64,000 nucleotides of DNA, from NCBI RefSeq assembly GCF_003018255.1, contig NZ_CP027440.1. One strand, given 5' to 3'. The DNA comes from Escherichia coli. GTDB taxonomy: Bacteria > Pseudomonadota > Gammaproteobacteria > Enterobacterales > Enterobacteriaceae. The position numbers and the translations under genes were made by a program. Under the pieces are notes generated by a model. That model did no database searches, was not told where the DNA came from, and saw nothing but the letters and a program-made list of their open reading frames with translations. Positions 39,414 to 58,992 of the stretch are shown piece after piece; positions within the stretch are counted from its first letter, which is position 1; each line of letters begins with the position of its first letter.

Positions 39414-40145
39414 ATGAGCGAAATGATTTACGGCATCCATGCAGTGCAGGCCCTGCTGGAGCGCGCCCCTGAACGTTTTCAGGAAGTCTTTATTTTAAAA
39501 GGCCGTGAAGATAAACGTCTGTTACCGCTGATTCACGCCCTTGAGTCTCAGGGCGTGGTTATCCAGTTGGCAAACCGCCAATATCTCGACGAGAAAAGCG
39601 ACGGTGCCGTGCATCAGGGCATTATCGCTCGTGTGAAGCCAGGACGGCAGTATCAGGAAAACGATCTGCCGGATCTGATCGCTTCGCTCGATCAACCGTT
39701 CCTGCTGATCCTCGACGGCGTAACCGATCCGCACAACCTCGGCGCGTGCCTGCGTAGCGCGGACGCCGCTGGTGTTCATGCGGTGATTGTGCCGAAAGAT
39801 CGCTCCGCACAGCTCAACGCCACGGCGAAAAAAGTGGCCTGTGGTGCGGCAGAAAGCGTTCCGCTGATTCGGGTGACTAATCTGGCGCGCACCATGCGTA
39901 TGTTGCAGGAAGAGAATATCTGGATCGTCGGTACGGCAGGCGAGGCGGATCATACACTCTATCAGAGCAAAATGACCGGACGCCTGGCGCTGGTGATGGG
40001 CGCGGAAGGTGAAGGTATGCGTCGCCTGACCCGTGAACATTGCGATGAGTTGATCAGCATCCCAATGGCAGGAAGTGTTTCTTCCCTGAACGTTTCGGTT
40101 GCAACCGGAATTTGCTTATTTGAAGCGGTTCGTCAGCGCAGCTAG
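39414..40145 (+). CDS. rlmB: 23S rRNA (Gm2251) 2-prime-O-methyltransferase RlmB
   Basis: ORF track 243 aa; SpoU/TrmH family, recognised as RlmB. Confidence 0.95.
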
Positions 40146-40160
40146 TTCCTCTGAATTATG

Positions 40161-40192
40161 AAAAGCCATCCAGATTTGGATGGTTTTTTTTT
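40161..40192 (+). terminator. Rho-independent terminator after rlmB
   Basis: Hairpin ccatcca-gatt-tggatgg followed by 9-nt T-tract. Confidence 0.8.
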
Positions 40193-40271
40193 GTCTATAG
40201 CTGGTAAGATAATTACGTACTGCAAATATTCATTTTATTAATATTTAAACTTAATTTATATGGAATAATAT

Positions 40272-43165: not shown

Positions 43166-44329
43166 ATGCTGAGACACAACGTTCCTGTGCGGCGGGATCT
43201 GGACCAGATCGCCGCTGACAACGGTTTCGACTTTCATATCATCGACAATGAAATCTATTGGGACGAGAGTCGAGCTTACCGTTTTACTCTGCGCCAGATT
43301 GAAGAGCAGATCGAAAAACCGACTGCGGAACTGCATCAGATGTGCCTTGAGGTGGTGGATCGCGCGGTTAAAGACGAAGAGATCCTGACGCAACTGGCGA
43401 TCCCGCCGTTGTACTGGGATGTGATCGCCGAAAGCTGGCGCGCACGCGATCCTTCGTTGTATGGCCGTATGGATTTTGCCTGGTGTGGTAATGCACCGGT
43501 TAAGTTGCTGGAGTACAACGCCGATACGCCAACTTCATTGTACGAGTCGGCTTATTTCCAGTGGTTGTGGCTGGAAGATGCCCGGCGCAGCGGCGTTATT
43601 CCGCGCGATGCCGATCAGTACAATGCCATTCAGGAGCGCCTGATTTCACGCTTTAGCGAGCTTTACAGTCGGGAACCGTTTTATTTTTGCTGCTGTCAGG
43701 ACACCGACGAAGACAGGAGTACCGTGCTGTACTTGCAGGACTGCGCCGAGCAGGCAGGGCAGGAGTCGCGGTTTATCTACATTGAAGATCTCGGTTTGGG
43801 CGTCGGCGGTGTGCTGACCGATCTTGATGATAATGTCATCCAGCGTGCATTTAAGCTGTATCCGCTGGAGTGGATGATGCGTGACGATAACGGTCCGCTG
43901 CTGCGCAAGCGTCGCGAGCAATGGGTGGAGCCGTTATGGAAAAGTATCTTGAGTAATAAAGGGCTAATGCCGCTGCTTTGGCGCTTCTTCCCTGGTCATC
44001 CTAACCTTCTTGCATCCTGGTTCGATGGTGAAAAACCGCAGATTGCCGCTGGCGAAAGCTATGTGCGTAAACCGATTTACTCGCGCGAAGGCGGAAACGT
44101 CACCATTTTCGACGGTCAGAATAACGTTGTTGACCACGCTGATGGTGATTACGCCGATGAACCGATGATCTACCAGGCGTTTCAACCTCTGCCGCGATTT
44201 GGCGATAGCTACACACTCATCGGTAGCTGGATTGTCGATGATGAAGCGTGCGGAATGGGGATCCGTGAAGATAACACGTTGATCACCAAAGACACCTCAC
44301 GTTTCGTTCCGCATTACATTGCTGGATAA
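43166..44329 (+). CDS. yjfC: Glutathionylspermidine-synthetase-like ATP-grasp protein YjfC
   Basis: ORF track frame; start at ATG 43166 (MLRHNVPVRRDLDQIAADNG), 387 aa. Confidence 0.88.
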   Translation: MLRHNVPVRRDLDQIAADNGFDFHIIDNEIYWDESRAYRFTLRQIEEQIEKPTAELHQMCLEVVDRAVKDEEILTQLAIPPLYWDVIAESWRARDPSLYGRMDFAWCGNAPVKLLEYNADTPTSLYESAYFQWLWLEDARRSGVIPRDADQYNAIQERLISRFSELYSREPFYFCCCQDTDEDRSTVLYLQDCAEQAGQESRFIYIEDLGLGVGGVLTDLDDNVIQRAFKLYPLEWMMRDDNGPLLRKRREQWVEPLWKSILSNKGLMPLLWRFFPGHPNLLASWFDGEKPQIAAGESYVRKPIYSREGGNVTIFDGQNNVVDHADGDYADEPMIYQAFQPLPRFGDSYTLIGSWIVDDEACGMGIREDNTLITKDTSRFVPHYIAG

Positions 44330-44412
44330 GAATGTTTTAGCAATCTCTTTCTGTCATGAATCCATGGCAGTGACCATACTAATGGTGACTGCCATTGATG
44401 GAGGGAGACACA

Positions 44413-46038
44413 GTGCACTGGCAAACTCACACCGTTTTTAATCAACCTATACCATTAAATAACAGCAACTTATACCTGTCTGATGGCGCGCTCTGCGAAG
44501 CGGTAACGCGTGAAGGTGCTGGCTGGGATAGCGATTTTCTCGCCAGTATTGGTCAGCAGTTAGGGACGGCTGAATCCCTTGAACTGGGGCGGCTGGCGAA
44601 TGTGAATCCGCCTGAATTATTGCGCTACGATGCCCAGGGGCGGCGTCTGGACGATGTGCGTTTTCACCCCGCCTGGCACCTGCTGATGCAGGCGCTATGT
44701 ACCAATCGGGTGCACAATCTTGCCTGGGAAGAAGACGCTCGCTCCGGCGCATTTGTGGCGCGCGCGGCGCGTTTTATGTTGCACGCACAGGTTGAGGCAG
44801 GGTCGTTATGTCCGATAACGATGACCTTTGCCGCCACGCCATTGCTGTTACAGATGTTACCCGCGCCGTTTCAGGACTGGACCACGCCGCTGTTGAGCGA
44901 TCGCTACGATTCTCACTTATTGCCAGGTGGGCAAAAACGCGGTTTGTTGATTGGCATGGGAATGACGGAAAAACAGGGCGGTTCCGATGTCATGAGCAAC
45001 ACCACCCGCGCAGAGCGCATGGAAGATGGCTCTTATCGGCTGGTGGGGCATAAATGGTTTTTCTCGGTGCCGCAAAGCGATGCGCATCTGGTGCTGGCGC
45101 AGACTACGGGCGGTTTGTCCTGCTTTTTTGTGCCGCGCTTTTTGCCTGACGGGCAACGCAACGCGATTCGCCTCGAGCGGCTGAAAGATAAGCTGGGTAA
45201 TCGCTCTAACGCCAGCTGCGAAGTGGAGTTTCAGGATGCCATTGGCTGGTTGTTGGGGCAGGAAGGGGAAGGAATTCGTCTGATCCTGAAAATGGGTGGG
45301 ATGACGCGTTTTGATTGCGCCCTGGGTAGCCATGCCATGATGCGCCGTGCATTTTCGCTAGCGATTTATCATGCACATCAACGCCATGTTTTTGGTAATC
45401 CATTGATCCAACAGCCCCTTATGCGTCATGTCTTAAGTCGCATGGCACTTCAGCTTGAAGGGCAAACGGCGTTGCTGTTTCGTCTTGCTCGAGCGTGGGA
45501 CCGGCGTGCCGATGCCAAAGAAGCCCTGTGGGCGCGTTTATTTACGCCTGCGGCGAAATTTGTGATCTGCAAACGAGGTATGCCGTTTGTGGCCGAAGCG
45601 ATGGAGGTGCTGGGCGGCATTGGTTATTGCGAGGAGAGCGAGCTGCCGCGGCTTTACCGGGAGATGCCGGTAAACAGTATTTGGGAAGGTTCCGGTAATA
45701 TTATGTGCCTGGATGTACTGCGCGTGCTCAATAAGCAAGCGGGTGTATACGACTTATTGTCGGAAGCATTTGTGGAAGTGAAAGGGCAGGATCGCTATTT
45801 TGATCGCGCGGTTCGTCGTTTACAGCAGCAGCTGCGTAAGCCAGCTGAAGAACTGGGGCGAGAGATTACTCATCAGCTATTCCTGCTGGGCTGCGGTGCG
45901 CAAATGTTGAAATATGCCTCTCCGCCAATGGCGCAGGCGTGGTGTCAGGTGATGTTAGATACGCGCGGCGGCGTACGGTTGTCAGAGCAGATCCAGAATG
46001 ATTTATTGCTGCGGGCGACGGGAGGAGTGTGTTTGTAA
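44413..46038 (+). CDS. aidB: Adaptive-response protein AidB (acyl-CoA dehydrogenase family)
   Basis: ORF track frame; GTG start at 44413 with RBS gagggag, giving MHWQTHTVFNQPIPL, 541 aa. Confidence 0.93.
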   Translation: MHWQTHTVFNQPIPLNNSNLYLSDGALCEAVTREGAGWDSDFLASIGQQLGTAESLELGRLANVNPPELLRYDAQGRRLDDVRFHPAWHLLMQALCTNRVHNLAWEEDARSGAFVARAARFMLHAQVEAGSLCPITMTFAATPLLLQMLPAPFQDWTTPLLSDRYDSHLLPGGQKRGLLIGMGMTEKQGGSDVMSNTTRAERMEDGSYRLVGHKWFFSVPQSDAHLVLAQTTGGLSCFFVPRFLPDGQRNAIRLERLKDKLGNRSNASCEVEFQDAIGWLLGQEGEGIRLILKMGGMTRFDCALGSHAMMRRAFSLAIYHAHQRHVFGNPLIQQPLMRHVLSRMALQLEGQTALLFRLARAWDRRADAKEALWARLFTPAAKFVICKRGMPFVAEAMEVLGGIGYCEESELPRLYREMPVNSIWEGSGNIMCLDVLRVLNKQAGVYDLLSEAFVEVKGQDRYFDRAVRRLQQQLRKPAEELGREITHQLFLLGCGAQMLKYASPPMAQAWCQVMLDTRGGVRLSEQIQNDLLLRATGGVCL

Positions 46039-56686: not shown

Positions 56687-56707
56687 TTCGTTATTCAACG
56701 AGACGTA

Positions 56708-56740
56708 AAAACGCCGACCAGTGGTCGGCGTTTTGCTTTT
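56708..56740 (+). terminator. Rho-independent terminator of the rpsF-priB-rpsR-rplI operon
   Basis: Hairpin cgccgacca-gt-ggtcggcg (56712..56730) followed by ttttgctttt. Confidence 0.85.
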
Positions 56741-58850: not shown

Positions 58851-58948
58851 AATAGTTATTTCGATATATTCGCTAAATCATAAATTTGCGAAGCAATGCC
58901 AGTAGATACTGAACGTTTTGGAAGAGACGTTTAATTTATGAGAAAAAT

Positions 58949-58981
58949 AGAAACGCTACAAAGCTAAATTATAGCGTTTCT
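58949..58981. terminator. Perfect 10-bp stem hairpin between convergent kinase gene and MFS gene
   Basis: agaaacgcta / tagcgtttct with 13-nt loop; T-rich run follows on the minus strand, so probably the MFS operon terminator. Confidence 0.55.
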
Positions 58982-58992
58982 ATGTAAAATAA

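What the first reader, a model, noticed from the sequence alone, without database searches (positions are those of the whole stretch)
44364..44395. 14-bp near-perfect inverted repeat immediately upstream of the aidB ribosome-binding site
atggcagtgaccat (44364..44377) and atggtgactgccat (44382..44395) form an inverted repeat with one central mismatch and a 4-nt spacer, ending 5 nt before the aidB RBS gagggag. It could be an operator or a leader hairpin that occludes translation initiation.
Basis: seen in the sequence. Interest (0 to 1): 0.3.

Follow-up and report, generated by a model that had tools for sequence, protein, structure and literature searches.

The report
Hairpin straddling the aidB promoter
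The inverted repeat is real and sits across the aidB promoter itself, so aidB's own mRNA cannot fold it; RNA arriving from the upstream gene yjfC can, and the resulting long hairpin is predicted to bury the aidB ribosome-binding site, probably shielding aidB from upstream transcription.

Summary
The repeat is confirmed: 14-nt arms at 44364-77 and 44382-95, one G/G mismatch, a 4-nt spacer. About 0.1 such repeats are expected per 64 kb.

It lies across the core aidB promoter of E. coli. The -10 hexamer CATACT (44375-80) spans the left arm and spacer, and the annotated start site (G44385) is inside the right arm. aidB's own mRNA therefore lacks the left arm, and a leader hairpin in that mRNA is excluded.

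RNA entering from yjfC meets no terminator in the 83-nt spacer. In that RNA the repeat caps a 26-bp stem-loop (-35 kcal/mol, z -6.4). Its lower 13 bp pair a CU-rich tract (44344-56) with the aidB Shine-Dalgarno region (44396-408).

The lower helix is kept by compensatory changes in Salmonella, Citrobacter sedlakii, Phytobacter and metagenome relatives. Salmonella has its own different repeat around the -10. Both helices are strong only where yjfC is directly upstream. Orthologues with a terminator or a divergent gene upstream lack them, even when the downstream half is identical.

Best reading: fold-back insulation of aidB translation from read-through transcripts, as in IS10/IS50. This function is inferred, not shown. 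An operator is not supported. Moderate interest; a new member of a known kind.

The parts
44327..44329 (+). yjfC stop codon (TAA). No terminator lies between it and aidB.
   Evidence: Annotation; terminator scans negative.
44331..44343 (+). Ada box AATgttttaGCAA (match to AAT-N6-GCAA). It lies outside the repeat.
   Evidence: Sequence. The consensus and its -40 to -60 position are from my own knowledge of Landini & Volkert 1995; that paper was not readable here. The site falls at -54 to -42 relative to G44385.
44344..44356 (+). 5' strand of the basal helix (anti-Shine-Dalgarno tract UCUCUUUCUGUCA). It overlaps the -35-like CTGTCA at 44351-56.
   Evidence: Folds. Conserved pairing and covariation.
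44357..44363 (+). 7-nt bulge (UGAAUCC) between the basal and apical helices. It carries the common T>G polymorphism at 44357.
44364..44377 (+). Left arm of the inverted repeat, which is the 5' strand of the apical helix. It covers the promoter spacer, the TGAC upstream of the -10, and the first 3 nt of the -10.
   Evidence: The outer TGGCA/TGCCA pairs are recovered by RNAalifold across genera.
44375..44380 (+). aidB -10 hexamer CATACT, with a C directly upstream at 44374 (sigma-S type).
   Evidence: CCATACTTA is conserved 37-38 nt before the start codon across Enterobacterales. A paper states that the aidB -10 begins with C.
44378..44381 (+). 4-nt spacer, which forms the hairpin loop (ACUA).
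44382..44395 (+). Right arm of the inverted repeat, which is the 3' strand of the apical helix. It spans -3 to +11 of the aidB transcript.
44385..44385 (+). Annotated aidB transcription start (G). The 5' UTR is 28 nt.
   Evidence: Leistra 2018 (PMC6028588), supplementary file 2. The aidB transcript is given as GTGACTGCCATTGATGGAGGGAGACACAgtg... with the start codon at nt 29.
44396..44408 (+). 3' strand of the basal helix (UGAUGGAGGGAGA). It contains the aidB Shine-Dalgarno GGAGGGAG at 44400-07.
44413..44415 (+). aidB GTG start codon.

Best explanation
The repeat is the apical 13 bp of a 26-bp RNA stem-loop spanning 44344-44408. Only transcripts that begin upstream of the aidB promoter can form it, in practice read-through from yjfC, which has no terminator. 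The lower 13 bp pair a CU-rich tract (44344-56) with the aidB Shine-Dalgarno sequence and its 5' flank (44396-408). The aidB -10 and transcription start lie inside the apical part. aidB's own Ada- and sigma-S-driven mRNA therefore starts in the 3' arm, lacks the whole 5' strand, and has a free ribosome-binding site.

Shown here: the structure, its strand specificity, its conservation by compensatory change, and its restriction to genomes where yjfC is directly upstream.

Inferred: the structure blocks aidB translation on read-through RNA, as fold-back inhibition does in IS10/IS50. An untranslated aidB leader might then favour Rho termination, RNase III cleavage or 3'-end stabilisation of the yjf mRNA.
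For: - **Start site and -10.** The annotated start is G44385 inside the right arm, and the -10 CATACT lies at 44375-80.
- **Fold of the long RNA.** The + strand RNA 44340-44412 folds to -35.3 kcal/mol, z -6.4, with 0 of 200 shuffles as good. The - strand gives only -25.1 kcal/mol and loses the basal helix, because 4 of its pairs are G.U.
- **Native mRNA.** It shows no excess structure (z +0.2). The probability that the Shine-Dalgarno sequence is paired is 1.00 in the long RNA and 0.23 in the native RNA.
- **Comparison with neighbouring genes.** Among 65 annotated genes of the same region, aidB ranks first for pairing between its Shine-Dalgarno region and the upstream sequence (-25.3 kcal/mol against a mean of -10.2, sd 4.1).
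- **Covariation.** In 11 yjfC-aidB spacers from about 8 lineages, 81% of cells are paired against 39-56% with slid partners. Eight pairs change on both sides. The basal helix is 89.5% paired. Without the Escherichia rows the basal helix is 85.6% paired, against 44-65% slid. RNAalifold recovers the basal helix and the outer 5 bp of the repeat without being given the E. coli structure.
- **Salmonella.** It has a different repeat around its -10 (TCAATGGCGCAGTCA...TGACTtcaGCGCCATTGA), with ATGGCAG/CTGCCAT replaced by ATGGCGC/GCGCCAT.
- **Dependence on context.** Both helices are stronger with yjfC upstream (n=10) than in other contexts (n=31), with Mann-Whitney p of 2e-4 to 5e-4. After collapsing near-duplicates the summed energy is -33 against -20 kcal/mol, p 7e-4. 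Of the other contexts, 20 of 31 have a canonical terminator; of the 10 yjfC contexts, 9 gave no hit and L187 only a weak 5-bp stem across the yjfC stop codon.
- **Matched pairs.** Three metagenome pairs are identical from -39 or -43 to +15 but differ upstream. Basal-helix energies are -21.6, -26.0 and -26.0 with yjfC upstream, against -9.6, -12.3 and -12.3 with a terminator.
- **E. coli polymorphisms.** They fall in the bulge (44357), the loop (44381), or turn A-U into G.U (44364).
Against: - There is no direct evidence that transcription reads through from yjfC into aidB. There is also no evidence that such RNA is poorly translated.
- No 3' end or processing site near the junction appears in the one 3'-end dataset I could search. 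That is uninformative if expression is low.
- The 5' strand overlaps promoter elements (the -35 and the bases from -16 to -12), so part of its conservation within Escherichia has other causes.
- The apical helix, which is the repeat itself, is significant against shuffles in only 4 of 10 yjfC-type sequences. Two yjfC-type sequences (L150, L189) show weak helices.
- The T>G change at 44383, seen in E. albertii and some E. coli, breaks one apical pair without compensation.
- Lineages are few and not independent, and the context hypothesis was formed after seeing the data.
- The start site comes from a database-derived UTR in a supplement. I could not read the primary mapping papers.
Confidence: 0.55

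Rival explanations
1. The same RNA stem-loop exists, but its selected role is as the 3' structure of the yjfIJKLMC transcript. It would act as a non-canonical terminator or a barrier to 3' exonucleases, standing in for the missing intrinsic terminator. Burying the aidB Shine-Dalgarno sequence would then be a side effect of a cramped 83-nt spacer.
For: The hairpin occurs only where yjfC is directly upstream, and it replaces the canonical rlmB terminator seen in other genomes. It begins 15 nt after the yjfC stop codon.
Against: There is no U-tract after the stem and no terminator call. No 3' end is recorded at the junction in Adams 2021. In every strong case the 3' strand is specifically the Shine-Dalgarno sequence plus its flank, with compensatory changes at the bases next to it.
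Confidence: 0.2
2. The repeat is a DNA operator. A dimeric repressor would bind the dyad centred on the -10 and start site (44379/80) and block RNA polymerase at the aidB promoter.
For: A dyad with 14-bp arms sits exactly over -21 to +11 of a regulated promoter. aidB has Ada-independent regulation (sigma-S) and autoregulation by AidB.
Against: Arm sequences are not conserved outside Escherichia, while the -10 and the UTR are. Salmonella keeps complementarity with a different sequence. The repeat is continuous with a helix rich in G.U pairs that is not a DNA palindrome. No other copy of the half-site exists in the window or elsewhere in E. coli genomes. The dyad tracks the upstream gene context rather than the aidB lineage. 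From my own knowledge, AidB binds the UP-element region and Ada binds -40 to -60, neither of which is the repeat. The footprint papers were not readable here.
Confidence: 0.12
3. The repeat has no function. It would be a by-product of promoter constraints (CCAT of the -10 facing a conserved ATGG/GCCAT in the UTR), extended by template-switch (quasi-palindrome) mutation in the Escherichia lineage.
For: The inner part of the repeat (GTGACCAT/ATGGTGAC) is specific to Escherichia. The apical helix is weak in several yjfC-type lineages. E. albertii carries three DNA-level mismatches.
Against: The chance expectation is about 0.1 per 64 kb. Salmonella has an independent strong repeat at the same place. 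Covariation, the context association and the matched pairs also argue against it.
Confidence: 0.1
4. The hairpin forms in aidB's own leader and regulates its translation.
For: The repeat ends 4-5 nt before the Shine-Dalgarno sequence.
Against: The annotated start G44385 and the -10 at 44375-80 place the left arm upstream of the transcript. The native leader shows no excess structure.
Confidence: 0.03

Closest known systems
Fold-back inhibition of IS10 and IS50 transposase translation on transcripts entering from outside (Davis, Simons & Kleckner 1985; Krebs & Reznikoff 1986; Schulz & Reznikoff 1991). Cited from my own knowledge.
   Same: A sequence upstream of the gene's own start site is complementary to the ribosome-binding region. 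Only read-through transcripts can fold and mask the site, and the native transcript starts inside or after the structure.
   Different: This is a chromosomal housekeeping or stress gene, not a transposase. The structure encloses the whole -10 and start site. It appears to travel with the upstream yjf gene block and to replace a terminator. No experiment has been done.
[quoted passage not shown]
   Same: There is protection from outside transcription, and translation is controlled by pairing of the Shine-Dalgarno sequence with a complementary tract.
   Different: In IS200 the sequestering stem-loop lies inside the native 5' UTR and represses the element's own mRNA. At aidB the native mRNA escapes it.
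Intrinsic (Rho-independent) terminators between co-directional genes.
   Same: A stable stem-loop follows an upstream gene immediately. Orthologous genomes have a real rlmB terminator at the equivalent place.
   Different: There is no U-tract, and the stem is 26 bp with a bulge. The terminator scan was negative.
Palindromic repressor operators overlapping the -10 and start site (for example LexA or TetR-type sites).
   Same: The position and the dyad symmetry on DNA.
   Different: The half-site sequence is not conserved, no cognate factor is known, there is no second site, and the dyad continues into a helix that forms only in RNA.

Membership tests
Fold-back inhibition (IS10/IS50 type) | The complementary 5' strand lies upstream of the gene's own transcription start. 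| tested here: met
   The 5' strand is at 44344-44377 and the annotated start is G44385.
Fold-back inhibition (IS10/IS50 type) | The 3' strand includes the ribosome-binding site. | tested here: met
   The Shine-Dalgarno sequence at 44400-07 lies inside the basal helix 44396-408. The start codon itself is not paired.
Fold-back inhibition (IS10/IS50 type) | The native transcript cannot form the structure and has an accessible ribosome-binding site. | tested here: met
   By prediction only. Native RNA has z +0.2. The probability that the Shine-Dalgarno sequence is paired is 0.23 in native RNA against 1.00 in long RNA.
Fold-back inhibition (IS10/IS50 type) | Read-through transcripts exist. | tested here: inconclusive
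   No terminator lies between yjfC and aidB. No 3' end is recorded there. No transcript data spanning the junction were available.
Fold-back inhibition (IS10/IS50 type) | Read-through transcripts are translated poorly, and this is relieved by mutations that disrupt the stem. | not testable with these tools
   This needs reporter fusions or toeprinting.
Conserved cis-regulatory RNA structure | Base pairs are maintained by compensatory substitutions in independent lineages. | tested here: met
   The sample is small (11 sequences, about 8 lineages).
Intrinsic terminator | A GC-rich stem is followed by a U-tract. | tested here: not met
   The scan found none in 44200-44520. The stem is followed by CACAGUGCACUGG.
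Repressor operator | A DNA dyad overlaps the core promoter. | tested here: met
   The arms span -21 to +11.
Repressor operator | The half-site sequence is conserved in orthologous promoters. | tested here: not met
Repressor operator | A cognate DNA-binding protein or footprint is known. | not testable with these tools
   The primary footprint papers (Landini 1994-96, Rippa 2010) are not held.
Ada box | AAT-N6-GCAA at about -40 to -60. | tested here: not met
   The repeat itself has no such motif. The motif lies upstream at 44331-43.
Any Rfam family | A covariance-model match. | tested here: not met
   No match at E <= 1 in 44100-44600.

The most novel reading that the evidence does not exclude
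The stem-loop is a portable translational insulator belonging to the yjf gene block. Where the yjfI-yjfC block sits between rlmB and aidB, its 3' end carries a strand complementary to the resident aidB 5' UTR and Shine-Dalgarno sequence. The aidB promoter ends up enclosed in the hairpin, and the hairpin takes over the job that the rlmB terminator does in genomes without the block. This would be a general way for co-directional neighbours without a terminator to keep a stress gene under the sole control of its own promoter. Matched natural variants already exist that could test it.
Probability: 0.4. Interest if true: 0.6.

Novelty: new member of a known kind. Interest (0 to 1): 0.42.

Why it matters
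aidB is a classic model promoter for Ada activation and for sigma-S selectivity. An unrecognised RNA structure that encloses its -10 and start site would add a post-transcriptional layer to that model. It would explain how AidB synthesis stays dependent on its own promoter despite an unterminated upstream operon.

It would also be one of few chromosomal examples, outside transposons, of fold-back protection from read-through. It comes with a natural experiment: genomes with and without the yjf block share an identical downstream half.

There is a practical consequence too. Reporter constructs or 5' UTR clones that include sequence upstream of 44385 would behave differently from the native mRNA.

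Tried and rejected
**Primary papers.** I tried to read the aidB promoter papers (Landini 1994, 1995, 1996; Lacour 2004; Rippa 2010, 2011). None is held. A text search for the promoter sequence found nothing.

**Start-site data.** I looked for a measured start site in genome-wide supplements: Ettwiller 2016 (file truncated), Kim 2012, Cho 2014 and Conway 2014. There were no aidB entries. The start site finally came from the UTR table in Leistra 2018. A search for 'aidBp' returned only unrelated hits.

**First hypothesis, rejected.** I first supposed that every Enterobacterales aidB promoter carries a significant tract complementary to the Shine-Dalgarno sequence. With dinucleotide shuffles most orthologues were not significant. 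That led me to split the orthologues by upstream context.

**Early reading, rejected.** I first read E. coli as having a 13-15 nt deletion relative to Citrobacter. The ungapped alignment to Phytobacter and Salmonella shows instead that the E. coli Ada box occupies the position of the TTTGTGAyC box.

**Other negatives.**
- The sigma-70 consensus scan finds no promoter in the region. This is expected for an activator- or sigma-S-dependent promoter.
- There is no Rfam family.
- The coordinate mapping to ATCC 11775 failed for many genes and was redone on the record itself.
- The metagenome pattern was too permissive. Only 36 of 120 hits were real aidB loci, and these were filtered by tblastn.

Full report
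**Observation.** The window here is E. coli. The 231 nt around the site are 100% identical to strain ATCC 11775 and are present in 5424 of 5426 complete genomes. The flanking genes are yjfC (stop codon at 44327-29) and aidB (GTG start at 44413).

The repeat is exactly as described. The arms are ATGGCAGTGACCAT (44364-77) and ATGGTGACTGCCAT (44382-95), with one G/G mismatch and a 4-nt spacer. It extends to 18-nt arms with 2 mismatches. Repeats of this quality are expected 0.11-0.16 times per 64 kb. The window holds three, and the other two look like terminators.

**Where the repeat sits.** CCATACTTA is conserved 37-38 nt before the aidB start codon across Enterobacterales. A paper from the Landini laboratory states that the aidB -10 element begins with C. 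The -10 hexamer is therefore CATACT at 44375-80, which covers the last 3 nt of the left arm and most of the spacer.

The supplement of Leistra et al. 2018 gives the aidB transcript as GTGACTGCCATTGATGGAGGGAGACACAgtg..., with the start codon at nt 29. That places the start at G44385, the fourth base of the right arm. The match to the Ada consensus (AAT-N6-GCAA; consensus from my own knowledge) lies at 44331-43, which is -54 to -42.

aidB's own mRNA therefore contains only 11 nt of one arm. Its leader shows no excess structure (z +0.2).

**What the repeat can do in RNA.** If RNA enters from upstream, the repeat stacks on a second helix. UCUCUUUCUGUCA (44344-56) pairs with UGAUGGAGGGAGA (44396-408), which is the aidB Shine-Dalgarno sequence and its flank. 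A 7-nt bulge separates the two helices.

- The 73-nt segment folds to -35.3 kcal/mol, z -6.4, with none of 200 shuffles as good.
- The complementary strand reaches only -25.1 kcal/mol and loses the basal helix, because four of its pairs are G.U. The structure is therefore specific to the sense RNA and is not a DNA palindrome.
- The predicted probability that the Shine-Dalgarno sequence is paired is 1.00 in the long RNA and 0.23 in the native RNA.
- Among 65 annotated genes of the same region, aidB ranks first for pairing between its Shine-Dalgarno region and the upstream sequence (-25.3 kcal/mol against a mean of -10.2, sd 4.1).
- No terminator-like site lies between yjfC and aidB.

**Comparative evidence.** I collected aidB loci from three sources:
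- a scan of one genome per species;
- exact-protein look-ups for Salmonella, Citrobacter sedlakii, C. amalonaticus and an E. coli-like strain;
- a metagenome pattern scan filtered by tblastn.

A first test across all orthologues showed no general excess of complementarity between the upstream sequence and the Shine-Dalgarno region. Splitting by context changed the picture.

Where yjfC is directly upstream, both helices are strong. This group is Escherichia, Salmonella, C. sedlakii, Phytobacter and five metagenome contigs. Elsewhere they are at chance level:

| Measure | yjfC upstream (n=10) | Other context (n=31) | Mann-Whitney p |
|---|---|---|---|
| Apical helix, mean energy (kcal/mol) | -15.5 | -8.5 | 2e-4 |
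| Basal helix, mean energy (kcal/mol) | -17.6 | -11.0 | 5e-4 |
| Basal helix, mean z against shuffles | -2.6 | -0.1 | 2e-4 |

After collapsing near-duplicates (8 against 22 sequences), the summed energy has medians of -33 and -20 kcal/mol, p 7e-4. In the other contexts, 20 of 31 have a canonical intrinsic terminator just before the conserved TTTGTGAyC box, and most of the rest have a divergent gene. In the 10 yjfC contexts the same scan gave no hit in 9 and only a weak 5-bp stem across the yjfC stop codon in L187.

Three metagenome pairs give a control matched for phylogeny. Within each pair the sequence is identical from -39 or -43 to +15 and unrelated upstream. The yjfC-linked versions have basal-helix energies of -21.6, -26.0 and -26.0 kcal/mol. 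The terminator-linked versions have -9.6, -12.3 and -12.3.

**Covariation.** Eleven yjfC-aidB spacers align almost without gaps. On the structure derived from E. coli:
- 81% of cells are paired, against 39-56% when partners are slid;
- the covariation score is 0.256, against 0.07-0.15 for slid partners;
- eight pairs change on both sides;
- the basal helix is 89.5% paired.

Without the three Escherichia rows, the basal helix is still 85.6% paired (slid 44-65%) and the apical helix 62.7% (slid 25-49%). RNAalifold, which was not given the E. coli structure, recovers the full basal helix and the outer 5 bp of the repeat (TGGCA/TGCCA).

The bases next to the Shine-Dalgarno sequence covary with their partners: UGAU with GUCA in E. 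coli, GAC with GUC in L166 and L187, GAU with AUC in L159, and AAC with GUU in Phytobacter. Salmonella carries its own repeat around its -10 (TCAATGGCGCAGTCA...TGACTtcaGCGCCATTGA). Relative to E. coli it has two compensatory pair changes, ATGGCAG/CTGCCAT becoming ATGGCGC/GCGCCAT.

Within E. coli and E. albertii the observed variants are:
- 44357 T>G, in the bulge;
- 44381 A>T, in the loop;
- 44364 A>G, which turns an A-U pair into G.U;
- 44383 T>G, which breaks one apical pair;
- a 1-nt deletion in the right arm, in a strain whose yjfC is fragmented.

**Interpretation.** The evidence best supports an RNA structure selected in transcripts that come from yjfC, with the aidB promoter enclosed in its top. 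The most direct consequence is masking of the aidB ribosome-binding site on read-through RNA. aidB's own Ada- and sigma-S-driven mRNA would stay translatable. This is the logic of fold-back inhibition in IS10 and IS50 (my own knowledge) and is related to the protection devices of IS200.

I infer, but did not show, that read-through occurs and that it is poorly translated. A close rival is that the hairpin serves mainly as the 3' structure of the yjf mRNA. The two roles are compatible with each other.

An operator is not supported. Half-site sequence is not conserved, there is no second copy, the dyad continues into a helix that forms only in RNA, and the dyad tracks the upstream context rather than the aidB lineage. 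No Rfam family matches. I found no paper that treats the yjfC-aidB junction.

**Limits.**
- The lineages are few and related, and the context hypothesis was formed after seeing the data.
- The 5' strand overlaps promoter elements.
- The apical helix, which is the finding itself, is strong only in Escherichia, Salmonella and two metagenome lineages.
- The start site comes from a database-derived table. I could not read the primary mapping.
- The one 3'-end dataset I could search has no entry at the junction.

**Verdict.** The repeat is a real, non-random feature. Read as an operator or a native leader hairpin it is misinterpreted. Read as the cap of a read-through-specific hairpin that masks the Shine-Dalgarno sequence, it is a new member of a known kind, of moderate interest, and directly testable.

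Noticed in passing
window 44331-44343; loci L002-L024, L083, L084, L141-L189: The E. coli and E. albertii Ada box (AATgttttaGCAA) occupies exactly the position where all other Enterobacterales aidB promoters carry a conserved TTTTGTGAyC box at about -50. Ada control of aidB may be specific to Escherichia. The factor that uses the TTTGTGAyC box is unknown; it resembles a CRP half-site.
   Followed up: partly
window 40140-40200 and 44330-44375; L159/L178, L166/L141, L187/L133: The yjfI-yjfC block lies between the rlmB terminator and aidB. Genomes without it place the rlmB terminator directly before the TTTGTGA box. Matched contig pairs are identical from just upstream of the aidB -10 onward and unrelated before it, so the indel or recombination breakpoint is at the edge of the -10. 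TTTTGT follows the rlmB terminator in E. coli as well.
   Followed up: partly
L085 (Citrobacter amalonaticus), about -100 to -35 before aidB: An insertion of about 64 nt containing a strong hairpin separates CCATACTTA from the conserved GCCATTGAAGGAGGGAG. It looks like a small repeat or MITE-like element inside the promoter-UTR region.
   Followed up: no
L086 (GCA_900450065.1), aidB upstream: This E. coli-like strain has yjfC broken into four fragments. It also has a 1-nt deletion (equivalent to C44389) in the right arm of the repeat.
   Followed up: no
L011, L068, L135, L150, just after the -10: Cedecea and Enterobacter-like lineages have a separate short palindrome, TAATGGCA(N)TGCCATTA, at the very 5' end of the predicted native aidB mRNA. 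GCCATTGA is conserved widely in the UTR, and aidB is a reported CsrA target.
   Followed up: no
window 56707-56735 and 58947-58983: These are the only other inverted repeats of comparable quality in the window. AAAAACGCCGACCA/TGGTCGGCGTTTTG looks like a bidirectional terminator near rplI. The second lies between two convergent genes.
   Followed up: no
whole window against NZ_CP033092.2: The window is identical to ATCC 11775 around aidB but is not colinear with it over all 64 kb. A simple coordinate transfer put many start codons out of place.
   Followed up: partly
window 44443-44476: A direct repeat, CAACCTATACC / CAACTTATACC, spaced 23 nt apart inside the first codons of aidB. It is probably chance.
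   Followed up: no
K-12 coordinate 4415796, inside aidB on the minus strand: Adams et al. 2021 list an antisense RNA 3' end within the 3' part of aidB. It presumably comes from the convergent yjfN side.
   Followed up: no
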